Source: a phage
Length of the DNA: 51,075 nt
Sequence record: PZ871099.1
Direction: 5' to 3' (one strand)
The position numbers were made by a program, and so were the translations under genes. The stretch's first letter is position 1. Each line of letters begins with the position of its first letter. The notes under the pieces were generated by a model. The model worked only from the letters and a program-made list of their open reading frames with translations, searched no databases and was not told the origin of the DNA. Below, one piece after another: positions 9,742 to 49,024 of the stretch.

Positions 9742-10404
9742 ATGCACTTGCCTAATGGTTCTCAAATTTTCATCGGCGTTAATATGGGTGAGCCAATTAG
9801 CGCGACTCAAATCAGCAATGCTGATAATCCTGTTTTTACAACCAAAAACACTCAAAGCATCAAAAAAGGCGCTTATGTTCTTATTGAAACATCTTCTTGG
9901 GGAAAACTTGTTAGTCGAGTGCTTCGAGTTAAGGAAGTATCAGATAATGTAAGTGTTACTCTTGAGGGTGTTAGCACTAAAGATACAAACGTATTTCCAG
10001 AAGGACAGAACACAGCAACTTTCCGAGAAGTGAAATCTTGGGTAGAGGTTCCTTGCGTACAGGATCTTGCGCAGGACGGCGGCGAGCAACAGTATTACAC
10101 TTATCAGTGTTTGGCTGATGACCAGGAACAGCAGTTGCCGACCTACAAGAGCGCCGTTTTTCTTACCTATACTTTCGCGCATGAATATGATAATCCGATT
10201 TATCCGATCTTGCGCGAGGCTGAGGAATCCGGCGACGTAACCGCTTTGCGTATGTACGTGCCGAAAGCTAAAGAGATGCGTTGCTGGGCTGGCGTATTGT
10301 CTTTTAATGACATTCCGCAAACCACTATGAACGAAATGGAAACTGTTTCCCTTTCCGTATCTCTGAAAGGTCGATTCACGTTCTTACCTTCTGACGTTAA
10401 GTAA
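9742..10404 (+). CDS. major tail protein (putative)
   Basis: 220 aa, RBS AAGGAGG, strong terminator after it, directly upstream of the G/GT chaperone and tape measure. Confidence 0.55.
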   Translation: MHLPNGSQIFIGVNMGEPISATQISNADNPVFTTKNTQSIKKGAYVLIETSSWGKLVSRVLRVKEVSDNVSVTLEGVSTKDTNVFPEGQNTATFREVKSWVEVPCVQDLAQDGGEQQYYTYQCLADDQEQQLPTYKSAVFLTYTFAHEYDNPIYPILREAEESGDVTALRMYVPKAKEMRCWAGVLSFNDIPQTTMNEMETVSLSVSLKGRFTFLPSDVK

Positions 10405-10409
10405 AACAA

Positions 10410-10431
10410 GGGGCGTTGCGCCCCTTTTTTC
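10410..10431 (+). terminator. rho-independent terminator after the major tail gene
   Basis: GGGGCGttGCGCCCC plus TTTTTT. Confidence 0.8.
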
Positions 10432-10470
10432 ATTCCTGTAAAATCAATCTATCAAATAAATTAATTCCAC

Positions 10471-10490
10471 TTTTAACAAAAAGTGCTATA
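10471..10490 (-). promoter_or_regulatory. conserved intergenic motif copy (plus strand reads TTTTAACAAAAAGTGCTATAAGGAG)
   Basis: Abuts the RBS of the tail chaperone gene; contains TGcTATAAG. Confidence 0.5.
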
Positions 10491-16959: not shown

Positions 16960-19900
16960 ATGGCTAAATATATGATAAGCGGCAGTAAGGGCGGAAGCAA
17001 AAAGCCATACGTGCCAAAAGAGATGGAAGATAACCTGATCTCGATAAACAAGATTAAAGTTTTGCTGGCTGTATCTGATGGCGAGTGCGATCCAAATTTC
17101 ACGTTGCGCGATCTTTATCTTGATGATGTTCCGGTTATTGCCAGCGATGGCACTGTTAACTACGAGGGAGTTACGGCTGAATATCGACCAGGTACGCAGA
17201 CGCAAGATTACATCCAGGGGTTTACTGACACATCAAGCGAGGTGACAGTTTCGCGAGATATTACAGCAGACAATCCCTATATTATCTCTGTAACAAACAA
17301 AAATCTTTCCGCAATCAGAATCAAGATTCTGATGCCAACTGGCATAAAGCAGGAGGATAACGGCGATCTTGTTGGTGTAAGGGTTCAATATGCCGTAGAT
17401 ATGGCTGTTGATGGCGGTTCTTATAGCGAGGTTATGAGAGATGTAATTGACGGCAAGACAAGATCAGGATATGACCGCAGCAGAAGGATTGATCTTCCTA
17501 AGTTTGATGAGCGCGTTTTAATCAGGGTCAAGCGACTGACTCCAGACAGCACATCTTCAAAGGTGACTGATAAAATCAAACTGCAAAGTTACGCTGAGGT
17601 TGTGGATGCAAAATTCCGTTATCCTCTGACTGGCCTTGTATTCGTAGAATTTGACAGCGAATTGTTTCCTACGCAAATCCCTAACATTTCTATAAAAAAG
17701 AAATGGAAGATTATTAACGTGCCAAGCAACTACGATCCAATATCAAGAGAATATCACGGGTCATGGGATGGTACTTTTAAAAAAGCGTGGTCAAATAATC
17801 CTGCTTGGGTGCTTTATGATCTGGTAACGAATCAGCGTTATGGGCTTGACCAGCGAGAGCTAGGAATACAGATCGACAAGTGGAGCTTATATGAGGCAGG
17901 AGTTTACTGTGATCAGAAAGTTCCAGACGGTAAAGGCGGTACAGAGCCTCGCTACCTATGCGATGTTGTGATTCAGAATCAAGTTGAGGCTTATCAGCTA
18001 ATCCGTGACATTTGCTCAATCTTTCGCGGAATGAGCTTTTGGAATGGTGAGAGCTTATCAATCGTGATTGATAAGCCGCGCGATCCATCATACGTGTTTA
18101 CTAATGAAAACGTCATCAACGGTGATTTTCAGTACACAACCGCAAGCGAAAAAAGCATGTACACGCAGTGTAACGTGACGTTTGACGACGAACAAAACAT
18201 GTATCAACAGGACGTAGAGGGGGTTTTTGATACTGAGGCGGCATTACGATTTGGATACAATCCAACAAGCATTACAGCGATCGGGTGTACACGCAGGAGC
18301 GAAGCGAATCGTCGCGGTCGGTGGGTTTTGAAAACAAACCTTAGAAGCACTACTGTAAACTTTGCTACTGGACTGGAGGGGATGATTCCATCAATAGGTG
18401 ATGTGATTGCTATCGCCGATAATTTTCAGAGCAGCAACCTAACGTTAAACCTATCGGGCCGAGTGATGGAAGTTTCAGGATTGCAGGTTTTCGTTCCGTT
18501 TAAGGTTGATGCTCGTCCTGGTGATTTTATTATCATCAACAAGCCGGACGGCAAGCCAGTTAAGCGCACGATTTCAAAGGTGAGCGCAGACGGAAAAACC
18601 ATTGAGTTAAATATTGGATTTGGTTTTGATGTTAAGCCTGATACTGTTTTTGCGATTGACCGTACTGACCTTGCGTTGCAGCAATACGTTGTGACAACTA
18701 TCAGCAAGGGTGATGACGAAAATGAGTTTACCTATTCAATAACGGCTGTAGAGTACGATCCGAACAAATACGACGAGATTGATTATGGAGTAAACATTGA
18801 TGACAGGCCGACTTCAATTGTTCAGCCTGACGTAATGGCAGCGCCTGAGAACGTGCAAATCTCATCTTATTCTCGCGTCGTGCAGGGTGTCAGCGTTGAG
18901 ACTATGGTTGTGTCGTGGGAAAAAGTGCCTTATGCGTCACTGTATGAAATGCAATGGCGAAAAGGTGATGGCAACTGGCTGAATACGCCGCAGACAGCTA
19001 ACAAAGAGATAGAGGTAGAAGGAATTTATTCTGGTAACTACCAAGTAAGGGTTAGATCTGTTTCTGCAAGCGGTAACACTTCCCCGTGGTCAAAGATTGC
19101 AACCGCAACCCTGACAGGTAAAGTTGGCGAGCCAGGAGCGCCGATTAATCTTACAGCTTCTGATAATGAAGTTTTTGGCATTCGTGTTAAATGGGGTATG
19201 CCGGAAGGATCAGGCGATACGGCTTACATTGAGCTTCACCAATCGCCAGACGGAACGGTTGAAAACTCAAGCCTGCTTACGCTGATTCCATATCCTCAAT
19301 ATGAGTATTGGCATAGCACGTTACCAGCGGGTCAAGTTGTATGGTATAGAATCCGTAGCGTTGACAGGATCGGCAATGTTTCCGGCTGGACTGACTTTGT
19401 TCGCGGCATGGCGTCAGATGATGTTGAATCTGTTTTAGGCGACATTCTGGACAAGATTTTTGATACCGAAGCGGGTCAAGAAATCAAAGAGAACGCCATA
19501 GACAGTGCCAACAAAATCAAAGACCAGGCGCAATCAATCATCCAGAACGCATTGGCAAACGATGCTGATGTGAAATGGACGAGAGTACAAAACGGAAAGC
19601 GAAAGGCTGAATATGGTCACGCTCTTGAGCTTATCGCCAACGAAACGGAGGCGCGAGTAACTCAAATCGAAGAGTTAAAGGCTTCAATTGATGACGATAT
19701 AGTTTCAAGTATCAAAACCGTTCAGGAAGCGATTGCCAACGAATCAGAGACGCGAGCTACTCAAGTTCAGCAGCTTGATTCTAAATTTACGAAGGAAATA
19801 GACGGCGTAAAACGAGATACGGCTGCAAGCATTGGCGAGGTAAGGCAAACCATTACCAATGAATCAGAAGCGCGCGCTCAGGCCGTTCAGCAGCTTGACG

Positions 19901-28254: not shown

Positions 28255-28731
28255 TTAGCTATTCGTGCTGTTATCACCTTTGTAGAATCTTCCGCCTGGT
28301 TCGTAGTCTGAATTTTTGACTACGCGCAACATTTCGTATTTGTCGCAACGGGTAGTAAGAGGCTTGCCGTTAGAATCAAACCGCAGATCTGGACGACAAA
28401 ACGAGGCGCGGTATCCTTTGCATCCATTATATTTGTAGTCGTTATGCACCTTTTGTGCTCCAGCGGCTGAAATCATACCACGCTTTCGCCATTGGTTAAC
28501 TACTTGCTGAGATACGCGTAGACGTCGAGCCATAGCAGGAACACCGCCGTAATACTCGATCAGAATGTCAAGGCGAGATTTCAGGCTTGCTTTTACCTCA
28601 TCTCGCAGGATAAGAAATCCGGTTCGGTGTTTTCGTGGCTTTTTGTCTTTACCTCGTCGCGTTCCGTTGTTACCGTTAATAATGCGCTTGTCGATCTCAC
28701 CCGTAGATACTGCAATTCGTGCATCTTTCAT
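28255..28731 (-). CDS. HTH DNA-binding protein (putative transcription regulator)
   Basis: HTH-like segment MARRLRVSQQVVNQWRKRGMIS; Cys-containing C-terminus. Confidence 0.45.
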   Translation of the reverse strand: MKDARIAVSTGEIDKRIINGNNGTRRGKDKKPRKHRTGFLILRDEVKASLKSRLDILIEYYGGVPAMARRLRVSQQVVNQWRKRGMISAAGAQKVHNDYKYNGCKGYRASFCRPDLRFDSNGKPLTTRCDKYEMLRVVKNSDYEPGGRFYKGDNSTNS

Positions 28732-28742
28732 CTAGTCACCTC

Positions 28743-28763
28743 ATAGCATTTTTTGTTAAAACA
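28743..28763 (+). promoter_or_regulatory. conserved intergenic motif copy between divergent genes
   Basis: ATAGCATTTTTTGTTAAAAC, then 22 nt, then TATTAT before the helicase; complement abuts the RBS of the minus HTH gene. Confidence 0.55.
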
Positions 28764-28818
28764 GTTTATTGTAATGAGTCTATTATATACTCCAAATGGC
28801 ATTTTTTAAAGGTTTAAG

Positions 28819-32044: not shown

Positions 32045-32302
32045 ATGAAAAAAGAGAGAAGCGTTTATTTAAATGAAACTGGCGAATGGTTGTTATTTCG
32101 CGCTATGGTGTGCGATGCACTTGATAAAAATCCTAACGTGAAAAAGATGATTGATTGCGATCCGTGGGAATTTTCAAGCGCATTAGATATGAGCTTTGAG
32201 GAGACAAGAAAACTCCCGCTTGAAAAATGGCACGAACAAATCAGAAATGACATGCAAGAGTTTGTCGATTCGTGGAATTTTCAGCACGGAATGATCCACT
32301 AA
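32045..32302 (+). CDS. hypothetical protein
   Basis: 85 aa; stop runs into a motif copy. Confidence 0.3.
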   Translation: MKKERSVYLNETGEWLLFRAMVCDALDKNPNVKKMIDCDPWEFSSALDMSFEETRKLPLEKWHEQIRNDMQEFVDSWNFQHGMIH

Positions 32303-32321
32303 TAGCACTTTTTGTTAAAAC
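32301..32321 (+). promoter_or_regulatory. conserved intergenic motif copy
   Basis: Followed by hairpin GCCCGGCCTAGTGTCGGGC and CATAAT. Confidence 0.6.
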
Positions 32322-32377
32322 GCCCGGCCTAGTGTCGGGCATAATTATTTCAACGAAGCAAACATGAGGAAATAAAA

Positions 32378-35260: not shown

Positions 35261-35481
35261 GCGTCGGGCCACATATGAGTTTCGTTTGTTGGCTTGTTCG
35301 ATTCGTCGTACTGCCTTACTTCAATGCTGCAAGTGTCGCCGTACAGTTCTGCAATCTTGCGCTCATTTTCAACCGCCGATTGCTCACTCCATCCAAAATC
35401 CCTGTCGTAAATTGTCGGTATTTCAGCAGAAGATCCGTTGTCATGATTATATACGCGAACTACTAAAAACTTGCTGGACAT
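35257..35481 (-). CDS. hypothetical protein
   Basis: 74 aa, own upstream motif copy at 35543. Confidence 0.3.
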   Translation of the reverse strand: MSSKFLVVRVYNHDNGSSAEIPTIYDRDFGWSEQSAVENERKIAELYGDTCSIEVRQYDESNKPTNETHMWPDA

Positions 35482-35542
35482 AATTTTACCTTTTGGTTGT
35501 TTCGTTTCGATGAAACAAATATACCCGACACTAGGCCGGGCG

Positions 35543-35563
35543 TTTTAACAAAAAATGCTATTC
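35543..35563 (-). promoter_or_regulatory. conserved intergenic motif copy
   Basis: Same hairpin as the 32301 copy, inverted; TATATT box. Confidence 0.6.
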
Positions 35564-35678
35564 CATACGCTTTACCGTAACCAGTAATACACCATCATCA
35601 TTGCATAAAACATGTTCAGTGGTGCTAAAAGCGCGCATATCTGAATAAAGCAGTGTAAGTAACGCATGAATAAAATCC

Positions 35679-36074
35679 TCATGTGATATTGAATTTACGG
35701 CGCAGTGCTTCAAGATCTTGTCTATTAGCTTTTGCCTGGAACAATTCATCATCGCCCATCTCCCCTATTCTAGCCATATCCCTGATCCAGTCGTTGCGCA
35801 TACCATCCAGGCTATACAATTCGAATCCGAAAGGCCGCTTTGACGATCCTTTGGACCAGTATTTACCGCATACCCCATCTATATAGCCAGCCGTCATCAT
35901 TCTTGCGCAAAATTCCTTAGATGCAAGGCTGGCGAACATTCGCGGCGTAAGTCCGGCGGCACGTGCGAGCCGCTCGCATTCTCTATGCTGATAGATAAAT
36001 TTGGCTATGTGCTGCCTGTTAAACCAGTCGTATGACTCACACCATTTATACAGATCAAGCAAAAACATAATCAT
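35679..36074 (-). CDS. hypothetical protein (translationally coupled to upstream ATPase)
   Basis: 131 aa, ATGA overlap with the stop of 36071..37651. Confidence 0.4.
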   Translation of the reverse strand: MIMFLLDLYKWCESYDWFNRQHIAKFIYQHRECERLARAAGLTPRMFASLASKEFCARMMTAGYIDGVCGKYWSKGSSKRPFGFELYSLDGMRNDWIRDMARIGEMGDDELFQAKANRQDLEALRRKFNIT

Positions 36075-37651
36075 CCCAGCAGTATTGGATTTACAAAAAT
36101 AACACCATTAATCACACAAACATAATTTCTCTCTTCCAGCATTGGCAGCAAGTGCCCTTCTATCCTCTTCATTACGCCAGCTTGACCAACGAAAGGTTTT
36201 ACCTTTCTCGCTGATTCGTACAGGGCGCGGATATTCAGAATCCCTTTATTAGCCTTGCCGTGTCTAGTGATCAATTCAATCAATTTACCCATTTCAGCAT
36301 CATCACCAGCATAACCAGAAGCATTGGCGGCGCTAATGTATGTTTTGCTCAATTCCTGAAACATGATCAGCGCCTCTTGCATTGTTTCCACGTCGATCTC
36401 TTTCGACTTCTGCGGGTATCCAGCAGGATTAAACCAGTTGCGGATAACATGCAGGACGGAAGCAAGCCTGATCACCTGTTTATCCATTTTACCCAGCGCA
36501 CCGCGTAACATTGTATGAGAATACTTTCCGCCGTCTGCAAGATGCGGTTCCATATCCTGGCGAGCAATGTTGAGCACTCGCATAGCTGAACGGCTTATTT
36601 TCAGCGATACATTTGATTCGCTCATGATGTTATGCACCAATTGATAATATTGGGCCTTCAATTCAGAATCCACCGCCTCATAGGTAGAATCACCATTTTC
36701 ATCAATGAATGAGCGACGGCCTAAGAATGATTCCTCGCGGACCAACAAAAAGCGCTCACTAACACCGATACCGCGCGATCCAGCGTCCATGATTCCGCTT
36801 ATCGTTTCATCCTGGGCTATAACGCTCATACATCCAAGCGCGCGAAAACTCATGTTATTGTCAGCATTAGCACGGGCAATTGATACGTGACCATTATCCC
36901 ACGCCTTAAGCACTAGCTCACTGTTAGTCTTCCTTTCGCTATTTGCATAGGTCAAGCCTAACAAACTGTTAATACTTGTTGCTTCGTCAGATATTACGGC
37001 AAAGTTACCTTGCTTGTTGTTGATTTTCGCCAGGCCTTCTGGAGTTGTATCTGAAACAGGGAAAGTTATATCACACATCTTTTCCAGCTTCTCCTCCAGA
37101 TCCTCTTTTTCCTGGTATAGAGATTCCATATCAGCGCCTGATCTTTCGCTTTTCATCTCCTTTGCAAGACCTGCCAACTTTGCCTGTATTTTCTTTCTTT
37201 CCTTGCGGCGTTGCTCGTTGATCTTCTCAACTTCCGCAATCATCGGAGCAATAGCCATACTGTTGATCGCAGATTTACCAGTTGACGGCGGCTGGCTTGT
37301 AACGACGTAAAGCGCAGTCGGCTGATCGGTCCCGTGATAGTCAACCGTAAAGCGTCCAAGCATGGCGGCAGAAATGCAGCCGATAAAGTGCATGTAAGCC
37401 GATGATTCAGGGAATTGAACGGATCGCGCAATACTGCGTGATAACTTTCCGACAACATCAATATCATTACCAAGAGAAATTACGGGGTAGCGATCGTGAC
37501 CGCTATTTACATCTTTCACTTCGCCCCAAAAGCTGGACGACTGGCGATAGCCGTTAGCCTGAATTGATACGCGAACTGGCGAAAGGTTCTGGCTTTCAGC
37601 CATAGCGATTATTTGCTGTGGAGTTAATTTGTTCGTTTCTAATGAAAACAT
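36071..37651 (-). CDS. P-loop NTPase of unknown function
   Basis: 526 aa; Walker A QPPSTGKSA, Walker B-like FAVISDEA; family not assignable by eye. Confidence 0.5.
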   Translation of the reverse strand: MFSLETNKLTPQQIIAMAESQNLSPVRVSIQANGYRQSSSFWGEVKDVNSGHDRYPVISLGNDIDVVGKLSRSIARSVQFPESSAYMHFIGCISAAMLGRFTVDYHGTDQPTALYVVTSQPPSTGKSAINSMAIAPMIAEVEKINEQRRKERKKIQAKLAGLAKEMKSERSGADMESLYQEKEDLEEKLEKMCDITFPVSDTTPEGLAKINNKQGNFAVISDEATSINSLLGLTYANSERKTNSELVLKAWDNGHVSIARANADNNMSFRALGCMSVIAQDETISGIMDAGSRGIGVSERFLLVREESFLGRRSFIDENGDSTYEAVDSELKAQYYQLVHNIMSESNVSLKISRSAMRVLNIARQDMEPHLADGGKYSHTMLRGALGKMDKQVIRLASVLHVIRNWFNPAGYPQKSKEIDVETMQEALIMFQELSKTYISAANASGYAGDDAEMGKLIELITRHGKANKGILNIRALYESARKVKPFVGQAGVMKRIEGHLLPMLEERNYVCVINGVIFVNPILLG

Positions 37652-37704
37652 TCGTTAGCTTCTCCTTTGTGGGCCGTAAATTTTAACGGCCCAATACTAC
37701 CCCG

Positions 37705-37726
37705 TTTTGTCAAAAAGTGCTATTTG
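37705..37726 (-). promoter_or_regulatory. conserved intergenic motif copy (TTGACA variant)
   Basis: AAATAGCACTTTTTGACAAAAC, 22 nt, TAAAAT inside a hairpin; upstream of the ATPase gene. Confidence 0.6.
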
Positions 37727-37941
37727 ATCCGCTCTATTGCAACCAGAAGTCGATCAGGCTGGCGGTCGCTGTAGCATTCTCCTGTAATCCCATCCTTAAA
37801 CGTAAAGTAAAGCGCCTTATGATATGAAAAACCAATCAGCCAACCTACCGCCGTTTTTTTGATGGGCCTGACTATATCGCCAGGCTTGAAAGTCTTTGTG
37901 GTAGAATGCGTTACTTTGTAACGGTTTTCACTGTTTATCAC
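37720..37941 (-). CDS. hypothetical protein
   Basis: 73 aa. Confidence 0.3.
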   Translation of the reverse strand: MINSENRYKVTHSTTKTFKPGDIVRPIKKTAVGWLIGFSYHKALYFTFKDGITGECYSDRQPDRLLVAIERIK

Positions 37942-38324
37942 AGATATTTGCCCTCAAAAAGATAACAGCCGCCAGCAGAGAATCCGACCTCTTCACGGTA
38001 CAGGTTCCAGCGGTCGCCGCACTCATCAAAAACATAACCCGCAACGCTTCCAAGCGGTCGCCCTTTCTCGATCTGGTATCTCTTGCCCTGCTTAAAGTGC
38101 TTTTTGCACGGCATGTTATGATCTACAAACGTGCAAAGAACGGTTTTTGTGTTAATGGCGCGGTAATCATCTCGGTTTGCTGGAAGCCAGCGGCTACCCT
38201 TAACAAGCGTCTTAACCTGGAATTCTTCCACCTCGATCACATCATTACTTCCTGCAATCTTCTGATAAACCGTTTTAAAACGGCCTTTCATCAATACGTT
38301 GGTTTCATTACAGATAACATTCAT
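37938..38324 (-). CDS. hypothetical protein
   Basis: 128 aa; own motif copy, hairpin and CATAAT upstream. Confidence 0.35.
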   Translation of the reverse strand: MNVICNETNVLMKGRFKTVYQKIAGSNDVIEVEEFQVKTLVKGSRWLPANRDDYRAINTKTVLCTFVDHNMPCKKHFKQGKRYQIEKGRPLGSVAGYVFDECGDRWNLYREEVGFSAGGCYLFEGKYL

Positions 38325-38377
38325 GATCAGATCTCCTTTGTTTGTTCGATGTGATTATGCCAGGTTTTTACACCTGG

Positions 38378-38400
38378 CTTTTAACAAAAAGTGCTATTTT
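38378..38400 (-). promoter_or_regulatory. conserved intergenic motif copy
   Basis: Hairpin CCAGGTgtaaaaaCCTGG then CATAAT. Confidence 0.6.
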
Positions 38401-39110
38401 GAGTTTGACTCAAAGACGGCGCGAGCAAATCCGCGCGGAGTGAGGGAGCGGATCATCTTTGTGCGCGATGACTTGCCGCCAGTTTTGGCCCATCCTGGAT
38501 TATCTTTGTCTTCCTCTTTCGGCAGGATTAAAGCGCGCGGAGGAATAACAAAGCCGTTGCCAGTCCAGAGGCACGTTTTCTTAAAATAGCGATCCCGTGC
38601 CGGAATAATATCAGGGAAGTCGGGATGTTTATCATCTTCCGGCAGATAGCCAGCGTAATCGCACGGATGGAACGTATAATCAGGCTTTCGCCATAACGTT
38701 GACAACTTGCCAACCGGATTTTCGATCATGTAAGGAACACCGAAATAATCAGCTATATCAGCCGCGATTCTGCAAGTGTCGGCGGCCTCATCTTGGAACG
38801 ATGGATTCTCAAGGCGTTTTTTGGCCCAATGGCGAGATCCGCTATTTGCAAGGTCGGTGCATGGTGGGAAGGCCATAATAAAATCAGGATTGCCCCACTC
38901 ATTATTGATTGCCTTAACATAAAAAGCATCATCAATCCAGACGTTAACGTATTCGATATTCTCATGCTGTATGCGCACTGACTGGTAATCACCGTGATCG
39001 CCGCCGTCAGCATTAAAGCAAATGCACTTATAGCCATTATCAGCCCAATCTTTAACGGCCTTACCAGATCCATCAAATAGGGAGAATATTAAACCTTTAT
39101 ACATCGTCAT
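38394..39110 (-). CDS. compact DNA cytosine-C5 methyltransferase-like protein (putative)
   Basis: Motif I-like FSLFDGSG, motif IV-like AFPPCTD, motif VI-like IENPVG in the expected order; no obvious target recognition domain. Confidence 0.45.
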   Translation of the reverse strand: MTMYKGLIFSLFDGSGKAVKDWADNGYKCICFNADGGDHGDYQSVRIQHENIEYVNVWIDDAFYVKAINNEWGNPDFIMAFPPCTDLANSGSRHWAKKRLENPSFQDEAADTCRIAADIADYFGVPYMIENPVGKLSTLWRKPDYTFHPCDYAGYLPEDDKHPDFPDIIPARDRYFKKTCLWTGNGFVIPPRALILPKEEDKDNPGWAKTGGKSSRTKMIRSLTPRGFARAVFESNSK

Positions 39111-39114
39111 TACC

Positions 39115-39339
39115 TCAAAACGGAAAACAGCGCGCACAACCAGGATCGAAATCGCATCCACAATCATTAACAATCATAGTGGGATCTGCAAATATTGCGC
39201 TTGATTCAAGATCCATATCCATATCACCTAAAGCCTCATCAAGAGTCTTAATTTTATATGCCACTTCAAGCGCCGACTCTTTATTTAGTCCGGCATCTTC
39301 TGCCATTTGAAGGCGCTCAAAAAAACCGTCTTGACTCAT
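39115..39339 (-). CDS. hypothetical acidic protein with C-terminal Cys cluster
   Basis: 74 aa; CGCDFDPGCARC near the C-terminus. Confidence 0.3.
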   Translation of the reverse strand: MSQDGFFERLQMAEDAGLNKESALEVAYKIKTLDEALGDMDMDLESSAIFADPTMIVNDCGCDFDPGCARCFPF

Positions 39340-39450
39340 CGCATAATCCCCTTAATAACAGCCAAGATAATAGCCAGACCAGCAGCAGTAACCAAAAAAC
39401 CAACCGCGCCAATAATAGAATAAAAAAAGAAATCAATAGCTTTATCTATC
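39337..39450 (-). CDS. small hydrophobic protein (single transmembrane helix, putative)
   Basis: 37-aa ORF MIDKAIDFFFYSIIGAVGFLVTAAGLAIILAVIKGIMR, not in the track; stop overlaps next ATG. Confidence 0.3.
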
Positions 39451-39494
39451 ATTTTCCACCTCATTTAAAAGGCGGCAAAACGCCGCCAGATTAA

Positions 39495-39722
39495 TTAAAG
39501 AGCGCGCCAACTTTGAATATAGAAAGCGTTTTCTTCCAGTAATTCTTTTACCTGATCTTTATTGTATTTGCGCACCTTACCGCCTGGATGGATACCAATA
39601 AGATAGCCTCCTTTGCCCTCGGTGATAGTGATTTGGCTAATTCCGCAGGACTTATCAAGTTTTACAGCCACGCGGTGATGAGCGTCAATAGTTGCCATAA
39701 TGTTTAAAACTTTTGCTTTCAT
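39495..39722 (-). CDS. hypothetical protein
   Basis: 75 aa. Confidence 0.3.
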   Translation of the reverse strand: MKAKVLNIMATIDAHHRVAVKLDKSCGISQITITEGKGGYLIGIHPGGKVRKYNKDQVKELLEENAFYIQSWRAL

Positions 39723-39830
39723 TTAAATATCCTCAATTGAAATATGAATGACGTGGCGCTCTTTTTCCGTCGCCGCCGTAATGGTCATTTGCAACCGCCA
39801 CCATCCAGGCATTTTTGAAAATAAATAGCC

Positions 39831-40043
39831 TCATTTCTTATTTTTCAGCTTAAATTTATGACCTGGAACACCAGCGCCAATATAGCCATCGTTGTATTCC
39901 ATCAAATAAAGGTGAAGACCATTATCTGAAATTACATGAGGATCTTCTTTGAGATTTCCCATTAGTGGATATTCTTTTCCGCGCGTAAATTTCCAAATTG
40001 AGTTATAAGTTTCTACGCATTTAAGTTTTAATTGCTTTGCCAT
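39831..40043 (-). CDS. hypothetical protein
   Basis: 70 aa. Confidence 0.3.
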   Translation of the reverse strand: MAKQLKLKCVETYNSIWKFTRGKEYPLMGNLKEDPHVISDNGLHLYLMEYNDGYIGAGVPGHKFKLKNKK

Positions 40044-40240
40044 TAAATGATCTCCATGTATGTTTCAAAGCCATTTAACTTGAACAGGCCGTTTTCACAT
40101 TTGCGCACGTTCCAAGTTAGCCCTGAGTGGTACGCATCCATATCATCAAGGTCAATGGTGATTTCAGCGCCTTTCTTAAACAAACCTTTTTCGTGAGACT
40201 TGTCGCGCTTAACAACTTTAACATCAACTTGATTTTCCAT
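40043..40240 (-). CDS. hypothetical protein
   Basis: 65 aa; motif copy and conserved leader upstream. Confidence 0.35.
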   Translation of the reverse strand: MENQVDVKVVKRDKSHEKGLFKKGAEITIDLDDMDAYHSGLTWNVRKCENGLFKLNGFETYMEII

Positions 40241-40295
40241 CTTTAAATCCTAGTTCGTTGTCGATGGGTGTAATATACCATTCAGGCGCACATCG

Positions 40296-40316
40296 TTTTT
40301 AACAAAAAGTGCTATT
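40296..40316 (-). promoter_or_regulatory. conserved intergenic motif copy
   Basis: 22 nt then TATATT, then conserved leader ACACCCATCGACAACGAA. Confidence 0.6.
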
Positions 40317-40602
40317 CAACAACTTTTCCAGTTAAAGAGATAAGTTGCCTTGTAATCTTGTGGCGGCGATACTTACGCGCAACAACAGGAAGGCTTTCAC
40401 CGCTTTGATGACCAAAGCAGATCGGCAATTCACCTTCAATGGAGCGGAAGCCACCAAATTCAAGATCCCGCACTGGCTTAGCGCGCCAGGCTTCAATAAA
40501 TCCGCGCTCGTCACGAGTGATGTAGCGGTATATGTTCGGGAGGGGCAATTGTATCCCCTCAAAATCCACGGTATCGGTATAGCTATAAAACTTAGAACTC
40601 AT
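40312..40602 (-). CDS. hypothetical protein
   Basis: Start trimmed to MSSKFYS. Confidence 0.3.
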   Translation of the reverse strand: MSSKFYSYTDTVDFEGIQLPLPNIYRYITRDERGFIEAWRAKPVRDLEFGGFRSIEGELPICFGHQSGESLPVVARKYRRHKITRQLISLTGKVVE

Positions 40603-40744
40603 AGTCAACAACTCCAAACTCGTTAACGATTTGCGCCTTATAGAAGCCACCATTTTTCGCCAGGTTGTAACAAGCGGCTACGGTTTCAAATTCGCGCGCT
40701 TCCGGCTGGCTGTTTTCGTGTTCCCAGGTAATCAGAGTAACCAT
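40592..40744 (-). CDS. hypothetical small protein
   Basis: About 50 aa ORF (MVTLITWEHENSQPEAREFETVAACYNLAKNGGFYKAQIVNEFGVVDYEF) not in the track; sits after the 40802 motif copy and conserved leader. Confidence 0.3.
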   Translation of the reverse strand: MVTLITWEHENSQPEAREFETVAACYNLAKNGGFYKAQIVNEFGVVDYEF

Positions 40745-40800
40745 TTTCAAATCCTCGCATTCGTTGTCGATGCGTGTAATGTACAGGAATGCGAGGATTG

Positions 40801-40823
40801 AGTTTTAACAAAAAGTGCTATTT
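40801..40823 (-). promoter_or_regulatory. conserved intergenic motif copy
   Basis: 22 nt then TACATT, then leader ACACGCATCGACAACGAA. Confidence 0.6.
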
Positions 40824-41085
40824 AGTCCAGGAATTCGATTTCACGCTCGCCAGTTAACGGATCCACAAGCCAGAATCCGAGCGGTTCGCCGTGAACACCG
40901 CCATAGAATCCAAGCGCCGTCAGATCTTCACCTTTAACGAATACCAGGTTTCCGCTACGGCTTACGTGAGACACGTTAACGATAACCGGAAATGTGCGAT
41001 CCTTAAATGCGGGCCGCAGGGCGTAACATCCGTTATTGAGCAAACGTGCTTTGCGCTTAACTGGAATAGGTGCATTAATTTTCAT
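40822..41085 (-). CDS. hypothetical protein
   Basis: 87 aa. Confidence 0.3.
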   Translation of the reverse strand: MKINAPIPVKRKARLLNNGCYALRPAFKDRTFPVIVNVSHVSRSGNLVFVKGEDLTALGFYGGVHGEPLGFWLVDPLTGEREIEFLD

Positions 41086-41097
41086 GGTTATTACTCC

Positions 41098-41310
41098 TTA
41101 TCGTAAAGATTTAAAGACGTATAGTTTATTGCGGTAACTATATATCCGCATTGTTATTTCCCGCAGTGCAATATATTCCTTCCTGTTTTCCGGCATCCTG
41201 GCGAGCAATAACAGGCAGTATTTATAAGCGCGGTCAAGATTCCTTTCCGTGCCCCTGCAATATCCCTTGTTGCGCCTGGAGCGGTACAGCAATAACAATT
41301 TCTTGAACAT
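41098..41310 (-). CDS. hypothetical basic protein
   Basis: Start trimmed to MFKKLLLL, 2 nt after upstream stop. Confidence 0.25.
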   Translation of the reverse strand: MFKKLLLLYRSRRNKGYCRGTERNLDRAYKYCLLLLARMPENRKEYIALREITMRIYSYRNKLYVFKSLR

Positions 41311-41311
41311 T

Positions 41312-41521
41312 TCAGATACGCCCATACAGATCACAGACTTCGTTGATAAAATTGCTTTGCGCCCCTTTGTTGTCACGCTCAAGAATTGCGCGGCATTCAA
41401 ACTTATGATTATGCACGATGACTACAACCATGTTTTCAGGCATTGAGCGGTTATAGCGTTGCGCATCACTGATTGAAACGTCCATACCCATTTCATGTGC
41501 CTTCTTGATCACATCCAACAT
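41312..41521 (-). CDS. hypothetical protein (paralog of 41509..41775)
   Basis: Shares FINEVCDLYG vs FINDVCLLQ with neighbour; RBS AGGAGA. Confidence 0.35.
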   Translation of the reverse strand: MLDVIKKAHEMGMDVSISDAQRYNRSMPENMVVVIVHNHKFECRAILERDNKGAQSNFINEVCDLYGRI

Positions 41522-41775
41522 TTTTTCTTCTCCTGCAATAAGCAAACATCATTGATAAAATCAGCACGGCCCTTAATGTTGCTGATGTGGAACGTCTTTT
41601 CAGCGTACAGGCCATCACCTTCAATCACGATCATTACGCGAGTCGGTTTATTCACGGGCGCACATGAAAAGAGTGGGCGCGCCGGAAGAAATTTAGTAGC
41701 CACATCCAGGTTAGCCCTGGCGGCCCTGCAAAACGCCTCCGCCAGATCCAAATCATTTTCGGTAATCACCGCCAT
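41509..41775 (-). CDS. hypothetical protein (paralog of 41312..41521)
   Basis: 88 aa. Confidence 0.35.
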   Translation of the reverse strand: MAVITENDLDLAEAFCRAARANLDVATKFLPARPLFSCAPVNKPTRVMIVIEGDGLYAEKTFHISNIKGRADFINDVCLLQEKKKCWM

Positions 41776-42047
41776 TACTTCTTGATCTCCTCACTGATAA
41801 ATTTCAGCACCTGACGCAAGAAAACCTCGTTGTTGATAGTCGCTGGCAATTCTTCTTTCACTTCTTGCGGCAGATAGATATTGCCGTGCCAGGTCAAGCA
41901 ATCGTAGTTGATACGATAAGAGCAAAGCCACTCGCAATCGTTATCTGCTTCCCAAATGCAGAGTTGCAGAACATCGCCGAAGTCTTCAACAGTCAGATCC
42001 AGACCGTGACGCTTAGCGAAGTTGAAAGTGGTTTTGCTGATGTTCAT
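41775..42047 (-). CDS. hypothetical protein
   Basis: 90 aa; first gene after the 42106 motif copy. Confidence 0.35.
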   Translation of the reverse strand: MNISKTTFNFAKRHGLDLTVEDFGDVLQLCIWEADNDCEWLCSYRINYDCLTWHGNIYLPQEVKEELPATINNEVFLRQVLKFISEEIKK

Positions 42048-42105
42048 TGCTATCTCCTGAGCGGTTCGTTTCGATGTGTGTAATGTACCCGATCAGACGG
42101 CCTGA

Positions 42106-42127
42106 GTTTTAACAAAAAGTGCTATTT
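42106..42127 (-). promoter_or_regulatory. conserved intergenic motif copy
   Basis: 22 nt then TACATT, then leader ACACACATCGAAACGAA. Confidence 0.6.
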
Positions 42128-42149
42128 GACGGTTAGCGCCAGGATTGCG

Positions 42150-42250
42150 ATCGAAATAATCAAAAGTAATCATTCGTAATCAAATCACGTCAAAATGATG
42201 ATTGCCTTTGCAAATTTGATGAGAAAAGTAATCACGTTTAATCATTGGTT
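42150..42250. repeat. iteron-like array of TAATCA repeats
   Basis: AATAATCAAAAGTAATCATTCGTAATCAAATCACG ... AAAGTAATCACGTTTAATCATTGG; five copies spaced about 10 bp. Confidence 0.5.
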
Positions 42251-42399
42251 GCAGGGGAGATAGTGAAACCCTCCCCTCTTGCCTCACTTTTCCGCCTGGC
42301 TGTCAGTGGTTGTTGTCTTTTGTTCACCCCTGTTACCGATTTCAGGCGGCGTGTTTCCGCGCGGTTTTCCGGTGTAGCGAAAACGGAAAAAACAAAGAA

Positions 42400-42680
42400 A
42401 ATCCTCTATAATACATTGAAAATAAAGATTATTTATTTATATATATCTATAATGTTTTCTTTTTGTTCTCACTGTTACAGTGCTTTTTGTTGGTTATGGT
42501 GTGGTTGTGTGTGGGCATATATGGATAGTTGCGCGCGCGGCGGATTGCATATGTATATATACTTTTTCCGGCGGATTGCGTTAACAGCGTGAACAGAAAA
42601 ATAACAGCCCTGAAATCAACAACTTGCGCATGATTTTGTAGTTTTTCGATATTGGTAACGTTTTGAATACAACAAAAACA
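42400..42680. repeat. GT/AT-rich non-coding module, copy B
   Basis: Same blocks in the same order as copy A; spurious ORF 42245..42592 overlaps it. Confidence 0.6.
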
Positions 42681-42708
42681 TTGACACGCACCAAATAGCT
42701 TTTATAAT
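42681..42708 (+). promoter_or_regulatory. canonical sigma70 promoter (TTGACA-16-TATAAT)
   Basis: Read directly; start of the plus-strand early cluster; track ATG at 42707 lies in the -10 box so the gene start is placed at 42740. Confidence 0.65.
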
Positions 42709-42739
42709 GAGCCAACAGTCAACAACTGGAGGAAAGGAA

Positions 42740-43204
42740 ATGGAACAGAAAACCACTAAGGACTATTGCGATTGGCTTCGCGAGCTTGGTCGCCGCCTGG
42801 CTAGTGGCGATATTGAAGAGTATAAAATGTCACTAATTGACCTGGCCGGAATGTTAAGCGGTGACGACTGCTACAAGATCACGCGCAGTTCATCCTACAG
42901 CCGGACCATTATCAACCGCGTTCCAGAAGTAAGGGCCGCAGGTCGGGTAAGCATCAAGGTAGAGGAAACGGAAGATGATAAATTTTACGTTTTCCGCATG
43001 GTCCGCGAATCGAAAAGGAAAATCATCACACCCGAAGAATTGCCAGCCATCAAGGCAAGGGCGATCAAAAAGTTTGCCGATCGCTTACTGGCAGCAATCC
43101 CGAACATCGTGGACCTGGAAGGGGATAAACTGGCTGGAGCTTGTGAGGGCGTAAGCCGCTACCAGGATATGATCCGAGAAATCATCAAAGAGGAGGAGCA
43201 ATAA
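42740..43204 (+). CDS. hypothetical early protein
   Basis: RBS GGAGGAAAGG before ATG 42740. Confidence 0.35.
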   Translation: MEQKTTKDYCDWLRELGRRLASGDIEEYKMSLIDLAGMLSGDDCYKITRSSSYSRTIINRVPEVRAAGRVSIKVEETEDDKFYVFRMVRESKRKIITPEELPAIKARAIKKFADRLLAAIPNIVDLEGDKLAGACEGVSRYQDMIREIIKEEEQ

Positions 43205-43464
43205 TGAAAAAGGCATTAATCGGCGTTTTGGCGGCAATGACACTCCTGACCGGATGCGAAAAGGCATCAGAATCAACTGTTGTCGTAGGCGTGGAGTCAG
43301 ATTTCAAAGTCGGCCGCCTGTTCACTGTTGACGGATGCACAGCATACAGATTCTATGATAACGGTCGCGCGATCTATTACACCAACTGCAAAGGCGCAAC
43401 GGATAGCACGTACAACAGCGGAAAGAACGTAATGCACCAGCAAGTCACAACAGATATTAAATAG
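43204..43464 (+). CDS. lipoprotein (putative)
   Basis: Signal peptide with lipobox LTGC (MKKALIGVLAAMTLLTGCEK). Confidence 0.5.
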   Translation: MKKALIGVLAAMTLLTGCEKASESTVVVGVESDFKVGRLFTVDGCTAYRFYDNGRAIYYTNCKGATDSTYNSGKNVMHQQVTTDIK

Positions 43465-43480
43465 CACTTTTTGTTAAAAC
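43460..43480 (+). promoter_or_regulatory. conserved intergenic motif copy
   Basis: Stop TAG embedded; hairpin GCCAGGCgcaaaGCCTGGC; CATAAT; leader CATCGAAACGA. Confidence 0.6.
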
Positions 43481-43536
43481 GCCAGGCGCAAAGCCTGGCA
43501 TAATAGCCTCATCGAAACGAGATTGAGGAAACAAAA

Positions 43537-46355: not shown

Positions 46356-46410
46356 AGATTATCGGGCTTGCGGTATAGTAAGCCCATCAACAACAAACGA
46401 GGATTAAATC

Positions 46411-47067: not shown

Positions 47068-47658
47068 ATGAAACGAGACATTATCATCCTTAATGGGCCG
47101 CCAGGTTGCGGGAAGGACACTATTGCAGCTTACCTAACGGGCCATCGTTACCCTGCTGTAAAGGCGTCATTCAAACAGCCGATGTTCGATATTGCTTTTT
47201 CTATGCTTGGCGTGTACCGATACGATGAATTTATGGACCTGTACAACGACCGAGAGCAAAAAGAAAAGCCTCAAGTTATCTTGGGCGGCAAGTCACCTCG
47301 ACAATTCATGATCTGGATTAGCGAGGATGTAATGAAGCCAGTTTTTGGGGATCACTATTTCGGGCGTCGAATGGTTGAAGAGATTCACGAGATGTACCGA
47401 GATTTGGCGGTTGTGATCAGTGATGGCGGATTCCCCGAAGAAATCAAGCCGCTCGTTAAGGCGGGGCATGAGGTGCATATTTGCCGATTGCATCGCGACG
47501 GCTTCACGTTTGCTGGCGATTCGAGAGACTACATTGACCTGAGCGGTTATCACTATCGAATCCATCACTATGATTTCCACTTGCAGGACGGAAAGCCGGA
47601 ACTGGCTGTAAGCGAGATCGTCAATGCAGTCAAATGGAAGCACACACAGATTAAATAG
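47068..47658 (+). CDS. P-loop kinase (dNMP kinase-like, putative)
   Basis: Walker A ILNGPPGCGKDT at the N-terminus. Confidence 0.5.
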   Translation: MKRDIIILNGPPGCGKDTIAAYLTGHRYPAVKASFKQPMFDIAFSMLGVYRYDEFMDLYNDREQKEKPQVILGGKSPRQFMIWISEDVMKPVFGDHYFGRRMVEEIHEMYRDLAVVISDGGFPEEIKPLVKAGHEVHICRLHRDGFTFAGDSRDYIDLSGYHYRIHHYDFHLQDGKPELAVSEIVNAVKWKHTQIK

Positions 47659-47674
47659 CACGAATTGCTAAACG
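47654..47674 (+). promoter_or_regulatory. conserved intergenic motif copy, GAATTG variant
   Basis: AATAGCACGAATTGCTAAAC, hairpin GCGGGGttatcgGCCCCGC, then TATAAT. Confidence 0.55.
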
Positions 47675-47728
47675 CGGGGTTATCGGCCCCGCTATAATGC
47701 TTGCATCAACAATCAAGAGGAAATCACA

Positions 47729-48658: not shown

Positions 48659-48949
48659 ATGGCAAACAAAACTTACCGCAAACTACTGGTTAACGCTTTT
48701 GAAAACATCGCGCAGTGTAACAAGTGGAACGACTCTAAACACTCGCCAGTCACAATGAAGCGCGCCGGATTCAAAAATGCTCGTTCATGGGCGAGAGCTT
48801 TCGCAGCTTGCTATATGCCGGATGGTGGACTAGGAGCGATGAACGATTTTTTGATCAACATGATAGAGGAAGCTGCGCGAGAGGATCGACCGCTGACACA
48901 GCGAGATTTTGATGATTTCGCGCGCGATGAGCTTTACTATCTGGGCTAA
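48659..48949 (+). CDS. hypothetical protein
   Basis: 96 aa. Confidence 0.3.
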   Translation: MANKTYRKLLVNAFENIAQCNKWNDSKHSPVTMKRAGFKNARSWARAFAACYMPDGGLGAMNDFLINMIEEAAREDRPLTQRDFDDFARDELYYLG

Positions 48950-48968
48950 TAGCACTTTTTGTTAAAAC
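48948..48968 (+). promoter_or_regulatory. conserved intergenic motif copy
   Basis: Hairpin AAGGGCAtttggtaaagTGCCCTT. Confidence 0.55.
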
Positions 48969-49024
48969 TTCCGCAAGGGCATTTGGTAAAGTGCCCTTAT
49001 TGAAGCGAAACAGAGGAAAGCGCA

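What the first reader, a model, noticed from the sequence alone, without database searches (positions are those of the whole stretch)
35490..43530. Conserved leader block CATCGA(A/C)AACGA downstream of the -10 box in several early transcription units
After the -10-like box, copies at 35543(-), 40296(-), 40801(-), 42106(-) and 43460(+) all continue with ACAC(N)CATCGA(A/C)AACGAA-like sequence (for example ACACCCATCGACAACGAA, ACACGCATCGACAACGAA, ACACACATCGAAACGAA, TCATCGAAACGAG). This extends beyond what a promoter needs and would fall in the first 10-25 nt of the mRNA, suggesting a shared leader function such as a stability element or regulator binding site.
Basis: seen in the sequence. Interest (0 to 1): 0.5.

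Follow-up and report, generated by a model that had tools for sequence, protein, structure and literature searches.

The report
Conserved transcript start of T1-phage promoter cassettes
The repeated CATCGA(A/CA)ACGA block is real: it is the first dozen transcribed bases of a promoter-plus-hairpin cassette repeated about 20 times in this T1-like coliphage, and the cassette's upstream half matches the binding site of the host stress activators MarA/SoxS/Rob.

Summary
Observation confirmed and extended. The window is a Warwickvirus (T1-like, Drexlerviridae). The five cited copies carry CATCGA(A/CA)ACGA starting exactly 5 nt after a -10 hexamer, so CA is the inferred -1/+1 and the block is +1..+12 of the mRNA. 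In 125 non-redundant elements from T1, TLS, Rtp, KP36 and metagenomic relatives, 50 match at 9/12 or better (4.5 expected), and 41 of those sit at that offset.

The block is the downstream end of a composite cassette:
- a 20-mer that fits the marbox consensus GCAHWWWWTGYYAAA 15/15, spaced from the -10 exactly as in E. coli micF (class II layout);
- a variable 19-nt spacer, usually a GC hairpin;
- an extended -10;
- a U-free, unstructured leader of about 25 nt.

Orthologue comparison shows moderate constraint on the block: about half the change rate of spacer and discriminator, but 3-9 times that of marbox and -10. One-nucleotide indel variants are common.

Best reading: a selected initial-transcribed/5'UTR module for start-site choice, promoter escape and an open ribosome site. 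It is not a discrete operator or structured RNA. The cassettes also mark mosaic breakpoints, like T4-type PeSL cassettes. No start sites have been mapped, so function is inferred.

The parts
43460..43536 (+). Cassette A: 20-mer/marbox 43460-43479, hairpin spacer GCCAGGC-GCAAA-GCCTGGC, -10 CATAAT 43499-43504, inferred +1 at 43511, leader up to ATG 43537
43510..43521 (+). Leader block CATCGAAACGAG (-1..+11)
42048..42126 (-). Cassette B: marbox 20-mer 42107-42126, -10 TACATT 42082-42087, inferred +1 at 42075, first leftward early gene starts at 42047
42065..42076 (-). Leader block CATCGAAACGAA
40745..40822 (-). Cassette C: marbox 20-mer 40803-40822, -10 TACATT 40778-40783. The spacer CCTCGCATTC is complementary to the leader GAATGCGAGG, which contains the Shine-Dalgarno sequence
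40760..40772 (-). Leader block CATCGACAACGAA (1-nt insertion variant)
40241..40316 (-). Cassette D: marbox 20-mer 40297-40316, -10 TATATT 40272-40277, ATG at 40240
40254..40266 (-). Leader block CATCGACAACGAA
35482..35562 (-). Cassette E: marbox 20-mer 35543-35562 (GCAT variant), terminator-like hairpin GCCCGGC-CTAGT-GTCGGGT followed by the U-rich -10 and discriminator, -10 TATATT 35518-35523, ATG at 35481
35501..35512 (-). Leader block CATCGAAACGAA
46335..46400 (+). Cassette with degenerate block CATCAACAACAAACGA (46385-46400)
47654..47716 (+). Cassette (GAA-type marbox) with degenerate block CATCAACAATCAA (47704-47716)
32301..32363 (+). Cassette with degenerate block CAACGAAGCAAAC (32351-32363). 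Its marbox and hairpin are identical to cassette E, in inverted orientation
38340..38398 (-). Cassette with block-like CATCGAACAAAC (38340-38351) shifted 3 nt towards the -10
48948..49011 (+). Cassette of the second leader class (GCCCT|TATTGAAGCGAAAC) with a long inverted repeat around the -10. It shows the block is not obligatory for this promoter class

Best explanation
The block is the conserved initial transcribed sequence and 5' untranslated leader (-1 C, +1 A, then UCGAAACGAA) of a repeated promoter cassette. It is not a separate element. Each cassette has four parts: a 20-bp site that matches the host marbox and overlaps the -35 position, a variable 19-bp spacer that usually forms a GC hairpin, an extended -10, and a short leader of about 25 nt. 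RNA polymerase with sigma-70 would start at the A of CAT, 7 nt after the -10. An activator bound at the marbox probably helps recruit it (inferred). The block then gives a U-free, A-rich first 10-14 nt. That composition should favour productive escape from a tightly held promoter complex and leave the ribosome site unpaired. Secondarily, the conserved ends of the cassette (marbox upstream, block downstream) provide homology at which gene modules are exchanged between phages. Shown here: anatomy, position, conservation, lack of structure, and breakpoint association. Inferred: the start site, the effects on escape and translation, and activator dependence.
For: (1) Position. 41 of 50 block matches begin exactly 5 nt after the -10 hexamer, whereas the Shine-Dalgarno sequence starts anywhere from +8 to +25. 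The block is therefore anchored to the start site, not to the ribosome site.
(2) Information profile over 125 unbiased elements. C-1 carries 0.74 bit, A+1 0.93 bit, and +2..+12 carry 0.08-0.74 bit, against <=0.24 bit in the spacer upstream of -17 and about 0.1-0.2 bit at +19..+23.
(3) The hairpin 3' arm ends at -1 in the largest class (25 elements). The constraint regime therefore changes exactly at the inferred start.
(4) Composition and structure. +1..+12 is A 52%, C 21%, G 15%, T 12%. The U-free run from +3 has a median of 10 nt (14 in block-bearing copies), against an expected mean of 2.7. Transcripts from the cassette's own promoter fold at -1.6 kcal/mol, weaker than shuffles at -2.3. The Shine-Dalgarno sequence is 0.68 unpaired in these transcripts and 0.48 in read-through transcripts.
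(5) Late T1 genes that follow terminators have U-rich leaders and no block. The block therefore goes with primary 5' ends, not with translation signals in general.
(6) Mapped T7 early promoters start C|ATCGAGAGGG (A1) and C|ATGAAACGACAG (A3), and A1 is U-free from +3 to +20. A1 ranks 192 of 79,848 positions with the block matrix.
(7) Orthologue substitution rates in block-bearing cassettes: block 7.3%, spacer 13.0%, discriminator 18.6%, marbox 2.7%, -10 0.8%. This is a soft, tunable constraint.
(8) Cassette context. G at -14 occurs in 79% of elements (extended -10) and there is no -35.
Against: No transcription start site has been mapped for any T1-like phage in the literature I could search, so +1 is inferred from -10 geometry. 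Only 40-45% of promoters of this class carry the block, so it is not required for promoter function. The order-specific motif (CGAAACGA, not merely A/C-rich sequence) goes beyond what escape or lack of structure obviously demands. The T7 resemblance is statistically weak: one of six T7 host-polymerase promoters falls in the top 0.24%, and A3 matches only if a gap is allowed. The effect of the transcribed sequence on escape comes from general knowledge of T5 N25 and T7 A1 and was not tested here.
Confidence: 0.5

Rival explanations
1. The block is a specific binding site, on DNA at +1..+12 or on the mRNA 5' end, for a trans-acting phage or host regulator that switches a subset of early units off or on together.
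For: Conservation is order-specific, not only compositional: 50 matches observed against 4.5 in shuffles. The block defines a subset of promoters, about 45%, and these prefer the TTT-type marbox (40/56 vs 24/69). The phage encodes a Cro/YdaS-like helix-turn-helix protein at 28255-28731 and many small proteins of unknown function.
Against: The block has no dyad or phased direct-repeat geometry. One-nucleotide insertion and substitution variants are common (GAAAC, GACAAC, AACAAC, AAAAC). Its orthologue substitution rate of 7.3% is 3-9 times that of the two bona fide recognition elements. Operator-like palindromes are visible instead at the promoter next to the regulator gene (28743+, and T1 36444+) and they are unrelated to the block. 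There is no structured RNA and no Rfam hit.
Confidence: 0.17
2. The block has no expression role of its own. It is kept similar because the cassettes are recombination joints, like PeSL cassettes, that are repeatedly copied, converted and exchanged. The block is then simply the downstream homology arm.
For: 11 of 30 mosaic breakpoints against six Warwickvirus relatives fall in or within 15 nt of a cassette (6% expected, P about 9e-7). Two cases show 'cassette-gene-cassette' in one phage and a single cassette in another: window 40316/40741 and 42061/42127. Cassettes at 32301(+) and 35562(-) have identical marbox-plus-hairpin sequence. T4-type PeSLs behave the same way.
Against: Gene conversion would homogenise contiguous stretches, yet the spacer and discriminator between marbox and block carry almost no shared sequence (<=0.24 bit upstream of -17) while the block does. 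The block is shared across subfamilies (T1, TLS, Rtp, KP36) whose flanking sequence has diverged to saturation. Breakpoints at cassette edges are partly an alignment consequence of any conserved intergenic element.
Confidence: 0.15
3. The block acts only at the RNA level, as a translation-enhancing or degradation-resistant leader. It would be an A/C-rich, U-poor standby site for the 30S subunit and protein S1, with few RNase E sites, and would have no role in transcription initiation.
For: The composition is strand-specific, with A 52% and T 12%. The leader is unstructured and of narrow length, with a mode of 25 nt. AAAC, CAAC and AACG words are 3-4 times enriched upstream of the Shine-Dalgarno sequence compared with internal genes. 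From memory, CAA-rich leaders such as TMV omega enhance translation in E. coli.
Against: The block is fixed relative to the -10 (85% at one offset in the full set; 82% in the unbiased set) but not relative to the Shine-Dalgarno sequence (39% at the modal position). Highly expressed late genes manage with U-rich leaders. T7 A1 and A3 carry similar starts hundreds of nt from any ribosome site.
Confidence: 0.15

Closest known systems
PeSL (promoter-early stem-loop) cassettes of T4-type phages (Arbiol et al. 2010, PMC2839356; Comeau et al. 2014, PMC4122927)
   Same: Both are small repeated intergenic cassettes that combine a strong host-polymerase promoter with a G/C stem-loop. The stem-loop lies between the promoter boxes or just before the start site. 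Both sit in front of small orphan early genes in plastic genome regions, and both show the 'gene flanked by two cassettes' versus 'single cassette' polymorphism.
   Different: T4 PeSLs carry a canonical -35/-10 plus an AT-rich upstream region. The T1-family cassette has no -35. It has a marbox-like 20-mer, an extended -10 and a conserved transcribed block. Mini-circle formation and terminator activity were not tested here.
Class II MarA/SoxS/Rob (marbox) promoters, e.g. E. coli micF
   Same: GCACTTTTTGTTAAA matches the marbox GCAHWWWWTGYYAAA at 15/15 positions. The orientation matches micF, and there are exactly 20 nt between the marbox AAA and the -10 hexamer, as in micF (GCACTGAATGTCAAA, 20 nt, TAGAAT). 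The site centre is near -40/-41 and overlaps the -35 position, as described for class II promoters.
   Different: Host marboxes are degenerate and occur one per promoter. The phage carries about 20 near-consensus copies. Binding and activation are untested. The micF transcript start (GCTATCATC) does not resemble the block.
Initial transcribed ('downstream') regions of strong early phage promoters for E. coli RNA polymerase (T7 A1 and A3; T5 N25 from memory)
   Same: All start with C at -1 and A at +1 followed by U. T7 A1 begins ATCGAG and A3 begins ATGAAACGA, and a U-free stretch follows +2.
   Different: The similarity is short and only marginally significant. T7 leaders are hundreds of nt long, whereas these are about 25 nt and run straight into a ribosome site.
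The 21-nt direct repeat aaATAGCACnnnTTGnTAAAA reported in phage TLS (PMC11447400)
   Same: It is the same upstream element, noted there in TLS, T1, Rtp and Rogue1, about 76 nt before start codons.
   Different: That paper offered stoperator, enhancer or UP-element readings. It did not report the fixed -10, the marbox match or the leader block.

Membership tests
Extended -10 sigma-70 promoter | -10 hexamer TAnnnT with TGn immediately upstream, working without a -35 hexamer | tested here: met
   671 of 783 unique elements have nAnnnT exactly 19 nt after the 20-mer. Among the 125 elements selected for that -10, G at -14 occurs in 99 and T at -15 in 50. The standard -35/-10 scan does not call these sites.
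Extended -10 sigma-70 promoter | Transcription starts about 7 nt downstream of the -10 | not testable with these tools
   No 5'-end data for any Drexlerviridae phage were found. The C-1/A+1 consensus at that distance is suggestive only.
Class II marbox (MarA/SoxS/Rob) promoter | Match to the marbox consensus GCAHWWWWTGYYAAA | tested here: met
   16 exact and 7 one-mismatch matches in the window, against 2.43 expected at <=1 mismatch. The consensus is taken from PMC6900184.
Class II marbox (MarA/SoxS/Rob) promoter | Forward orientation, overlapping the -35 position, at class II distance from the -10 | tested here: met
   Orientation and the 20-nt AAA-to-hexamer distance are the same as in micF.
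Class II marbox (MarA/SoxS/Rob) promoter | Bound and activated by MarA, SoxS or Rob | not testable with these tools
A host factor is therefore the only candidate, but binding is untested.
PeSL-type mobile promoter/stem-loop cassette | Repeated promoter with an associated stem-loop | tested here: met
   80 of 125 elements have a stem of >=6 bp within -33..+4, against 10.7 in shuffles. The 3' arms end at -12 or at -1.
PeSL-type mobile promoter/stem-loop cassette | Indel and replacement boundaries between close relatives coincide with cassettes | tested here: met
   11 of 30 breakpoints against 6% expected, P about 9e-7, plus two unequal-crossover signatures.
PeSL-type mobile promoter/stem-loop cassette | The stem-loop terminates transcription, and recombination produces mini-circles | not testable with these tools
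   Only some hairpins are followed by a U-rich tract, for example 35523-35541(-) and 32322-32340(+).
Operator or regulator binding site | Fixed-geometry site (dyad or phased repeat) conserved as tightly as other recognition elements | tested here: not met
   Indel variants are common. The substitution rate is 7.3%, against 0.8-2.7% for the -10 and marbox.
Structured cis-regulatory RNA (riboswitch, thermometer, 5' stabilising stem-loop) | Stable conserved secondary structure or a known RNA family | tested here: not met
   No Rfam match in the window. The mean folding energy of -1.6 kcal/mol is weaker than in shuffles.

The most novel reading that the evidence does not exclude
T1-like phages (Drexlerviridae) drive most of their early and middle genes from about 20 near-consensus class II marbox promoters. 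They would therefore depend on, or sense the host through, the stress activators Rob, MarA and SoxS (RamA in Klebsiella). The conserved U-free CATCGAAACGA start would be the matching escape-and-leader module of this phage-specific promoter class. The whole cassette would also double as the recombination joint that shuffles orphan early genes.
Probability: 0.35. Interest if true: 0.75.

Novelty: new variant of a known kind. Interest (0 to 1): 0.5.

Why it matters
T1-like phages are common laboratory and fermentation contaminants and candidates for phage therapy. Even so, how they are transcribed is essentially unknown: recent genome papers find only 3-10 canonical promoters and leave the 21-nt repeat unexplained. 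This analysis gives a complete and testable promoter model: marbox, hairpin, extended -10 and a conserved transcript start. It explains why standard promoter finders fail on these genomes. It predicts about 20 start sites per genome to the nucleotide. It also suggests a host dependency on Rob/MarA/SoxS that a plating assay could test in a day. The leader block alone is a modest finding, a soft-constrained transcript start. It is still useful as a compact, unstructured, U-free leader, and as a marker of module boundaries in comparative genomics of this family.

Tried and rejected
- Rfam scan of the whole window: no family at gathering score.
- Folding of leaders: no structure, so a 5' stabilising hairpin, riboswitch or thermometer is rejected.
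- The generic -35/-10 scan does not detect the cassettes. It did reveal one perfect canonical promoter elsewhere, at 42681-42708.
Pfam on 10 candidate early proteins gave only DUF7174 and a Cro/YdaS-like helix-turn-helix.
- A sigma-54 reading of TAGCAC..TTGC was rejected on spacing: 3 nt instead of 5 between the blocks, AG instead of GG, and a conserved -10 lying 19 nt further on. This rests on my own reading of the sequence against the consensus from memory.
- An UP-element reading of the 20-mer was considered. The T and A tracts lie about 9 bp too far downstream, and invariant GCAC is not an UP feature (from memory).
- Matrix scan of the T7 genome to test the resemblance to A1 and A3: A1 ranks 192 of 79,848, and A3 is poor without a gap. 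This is a lead only.
- A loose pattern search for block-bearing promoters without a marbox was dominated by noise. A few plausible cases came from reading gene upstream regions, for example T1 upstream of 30378 and 42583.
- Literature searches for the block sequence, for marbox plus phage, and for start-site maps in Drexlerviridae found nothing relevant.
- A comparison with T1-like phages of non-enteric hosts was started. The portal search shows Vibrio and Aeromonas relatives exist, but those genomes were not fetched.

Full report
**What the window is.** The 35-45 kb part of the window is 96-98% identical to Escherichia phages JLBYU26, vB_EcoS-95, tonijn and tonn. vB_EcoS-95 is classified as Drexlerviridae, Tempevirinae, Warwickvirus. 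The window is therefore a T1-like virulent coliphage genome. The region of the finding holds two diverging sets of small orphan genes, leftward from 42126 and rightward from 42740.

**Checking the observation.** All five cited copies are present.
- CATCGAAACGA occurs exactly at 35502-35512(-), 42066-42076(-) and 43510-43520(+).
- CATCGACAACGA occurs exactly at 40255-40266(-) and 40761-40772(-).
- Both searches exceed every dinucleotide-preserving shuffle.

Extracting every copy shows a rigid layout: 20-mer, exactly 19 variable nt, a -10-like hexamer (TATAAT, CATAAT, TATATT, TACATT, TATAGT), 5 nt, then the block, then a Shine-Dalgarno sequence and ATG. Degenerate blocks occur at 46385, 47704, 32351 and 38351(-). 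Other cassettes (43924, 44916, 31232, 37723, 48949) lack the block.

**The block is family-wide and anchored to the -10.** The same layout and block occur in T1, TLS, Rtp and Klebsiella phage KP36, which represent separate genera or subfamilies. Examples are Rtp CATCGAAACGAAACGAAGAGAG, KP36 CATCGAAACGAACAACGGAG and T1 CATCGACAACGAAC.

I pooled these genomes with loci from an IMG/VR scan for the 20-mer alone, so the leader played no part in selection. I then removed near-duplicates. Results for the 125 remaining elements:
- 50 match CATCGAAACGAA at >=9/12, against 4.5 (maximum 11) when each leader is shuffled.
- 41 of the 50 lie exactly 5 nt after the hexamer.
- Per-position information is 0.74 bit at the C, 0.93 bit at the following A, and 0.08-0.74 bit over the next eleven positions.
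- The spacer upstream of -17 carries <=0.24 bit, and positions +19..+23 carry about 0.1-0.2 bit.

The Shine-Dalgarno sequence begins anywhere from +8 to +25 in block-bearing copies. The block is thus tied to the promoter and start site, not to the ribosome site. With the start placed at the usual 7 nt after the -10 (established promoter geometry), CA is -1/+1 and the block is +1..+12 of the mRNA. This is inferred, not shown.

**What the block is part of.** The upstream 20-mer is already in the literature as an unexplained 21-nt direct repeat of TLS, T1, Rtp and Rogue1 (aaATAGCACnnnTTGnTAAAA). It was suggested to be a stoperator, an enhancer or an UP element (PMC11447400). Three further features emerged here.

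- *The core promoter is of the extended -10 type.* G at -14 occurs in 79% of elements, with T frequent at -15 and -17, and there is no -35 hexamer at 16-18 bp.
- *The 20-mer fits the binding site of the host activators MarA, SoxS and Rob.* The published marbox GCAHWWWWTGYYAAA (PMC6900184) is matched 15/15 by GCACTTTTTGTTAAA. The window has 16 exact and 7 one-mismatch copies against 2.4 expected. In E. coli K-12 micF, a class II marbox promoter, the arrangement is GCACTGAATGTCAAA, 20 nt, TAGAAT, 7 nt, +1. The phage cassettes have the same orientation and the same 20 nt between AAA and the hexamer. Class II promoters are defined by a forward marbox overlapping the -35 (PMC12052159, PMC6900184), with the site at about -41 in micF (PMC8811837). 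The phages encode no MarA-like protein. I found no paper connecting marboxes with T1-like phages. Binding is untested.
- *The spacer usually forms a hairpin.* 64% of elements have a GC stem of >=6 bp within -33..+4, against 8.5% of shuffles. The 3' arm ends either at -12, abutting the -10, or exactly at -1. In the first type the -10 plus a U-rich discriminator can serve as a terminator tail, for example 35523-35541(-) and 32322-32340(+). The T1 annotators indeed called several of these hairpins terminators.

**Properties of the block and leader.**
- Composition of +1..+12 is A 52%, C 21%, G 15%, T 12%, and most T is at +2.
- The U-free run from +3 has a median of 10 nt, or 14 in block-bearing copies, against an expected mean of 2.7.
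- Leaders are short, with a mode of 25 nt, and essentially unstructured: -1.6 kcal/mol against -2.3 for shuffles.
- The Shine-Dalgarno sequence is more open in transcripts from the cassette's own promoter (0.68) than in read-through transcripts (0.48). In 38 of 106 cassettes the C-rich discriminator or the spacer can pair with it, most clearly in cassette C (CCTCGCATTC and GAATGCGAGG).
- T1 late genes that follow terminators have U-rich leaders without any block. The block therefore belongs to primary 5' ends, not to ribosome sites in general.
- The mapped T7 early promoters start C|ATCGAGAGGG (A1, U-free to +20) and C|ATGAAACGACAG (A3). This resembles the block, but A1 ranks only 192 of 79,848 and A3 needs a gap, so I treat it as a lead.

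**Strength of selection.** I compared each window cassette with its orthologues in relatives, using 43 distinct variants of block-bearing cassettes. Mismatch rates were:

| Segment | Mismatch rate |
|---|---|
| -10 hexamer | 0.8% |
| Marbox | 2.7% |
| Downstream coding sequence | 5.9% |
| Block (-1..+12) | 7.3% |
| Spacer | 13.0% |
| Discriminator | 18.6% |

The block is constrained, at about half the rate of its non-coding neighbours. The constraint is much looser than for the two recognition elements. One-nucleotide insertion variants are frequent. This pattern fits a tunable initial-transcribed or leader sequence better than a protein operator.

**Cassettes as module boundaries.** I aligned the window to six Warwickvirus relatives. 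11 of 30 homology breakpoints fall in or within 15 nt of a cassette, against 6% expected (P about 9e-7). At 40316/40741 and 42061/42127, one phage has cassette-gene-cassette where another has a single cassette. This is the signature of unequal recombination between cassettes. It is the behaviour described for the promoter-early stem-loop (PeSL) cassettes of T4-type phages, which also combine a strong promoter with a stem-loop placed between the boxes or just before the start (PMC2839356, PMC4122927). The marbox and the block are the two conserved ends of the unit. Because any conserved intergenic element attracts alignment ends, this shows association, not mechanism.

**Conclusion.**
- Most likely (about 0.5): the block is the selected initial-transcribed and 5' leader module of a composite promoter cassette. 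It fixes a CA start, gives a U-free, A-rich first 10-14 nt that should favour productive escape from a strongly anchored complex, and keeps the short leader open for the ribosome.
- Rivals: a regulator site (0.17), a passive recombination arm (0.15) and a purely RNA-level translation or stability leader (0.15).
- The more surprising by-product is the marbox identity of the upstream repeat, which is cheaply testable.

Noticed in passing
window, 23 sites, e.g. 43464-43478(+), 42108-42122(-), 40804-40818(-), 40298-40312(-): The known but unexplained 21-nt repeat of T1-like phages matches the MarA/SoxS/Rob marbox consensus GCAHWWWWTGYYAAA. There are 16 exact copies. Each lies at the same distance from the -10 as in the E. 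coli micF class II promoter. I found no paper making this link.
   Followed up: partly
window 42681-42708 (+): A perfect canonical sigma-70 promoter (TTGACA, 16 nt, TATAAT) without marbox or block lies in front of the first rightward gene (42740-43204). That gene encodes a DUF7174 protein conserved at the same genome position in T1, TLS, Rtp and KP36. It may be the immediate-early unit.
   Followed up: partly
window 10385-10490 (-); T1 locus L001 about 18790-18869 (-): A marbox plus -10 (TAGATT) points antisense within the tail-gene region and runs straight into a strong terminator hairpin. It predicts an RNA of about 40 nt, ACAGGAAUGAAAAAAGGGGCGCAACGCCCCUUGUUUU (-15.6 kcal/mol). The arrangement is conserved in T1.
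   Followed up: partly
window 40316/40741 and 42061/42127: Relatives have a single cassette where the window has cassette-gene-cassette (40317-40740). Conversely, phage tunus has an extra gene plus cassette at 42061-42127. Both are signatures of unequal recombination between promoter cassettes.
   Followed up: yes
window 32301-32339 (+) and 35524-35562 (-): Two cassettes share an identical marbox-plus-hairpin (GTTAAAACGCCCGGCCTAGTGTCGGG) in inverted orientation. They bracket the 3.2-kb segment that holds the exonuclease and lysis genes. The hairpins score as terminators on both strands.
   Followed up: no
window 42127-42680: The 550-bp divergent intergenic region contains GTAATCA-bearing 24-nt direct repeats (42154, 42226), two exact CGGCGGATTGC copies 31 nt apart (42538, 42569) and AT-rich TATATATA palindromes (42433-42452, 42549-42561). 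It may be an origin, pac or regulatory region.
   Followed up: partly
window 48948-49011 (+); T1 3535, TLS 5136, KP36 7253 in loci L001, L003, L005: A second conserved leader class exists, GGCCT|TATTGAAGC(G/A)AAAC...CCAATCAG(G)AGG. It is embedded in a long inverted repeat (CTTCCGCAAGGCCA ... TGGCCTTATTGAAG) that encloses the -10. It is nearly identical across subfamilies.
   Followed up: no
window 28743-28810 (+); T1 L001 36444-36520: The cassette next to the Cro/YdaS-like regulator gene carries palindromes around the -10 and start instead of the block: AAATGGCATTT in the window, and AACGTTTAC...GTAAACGTT in T1. They are candidate operators for that regulator.
   Followed up: no
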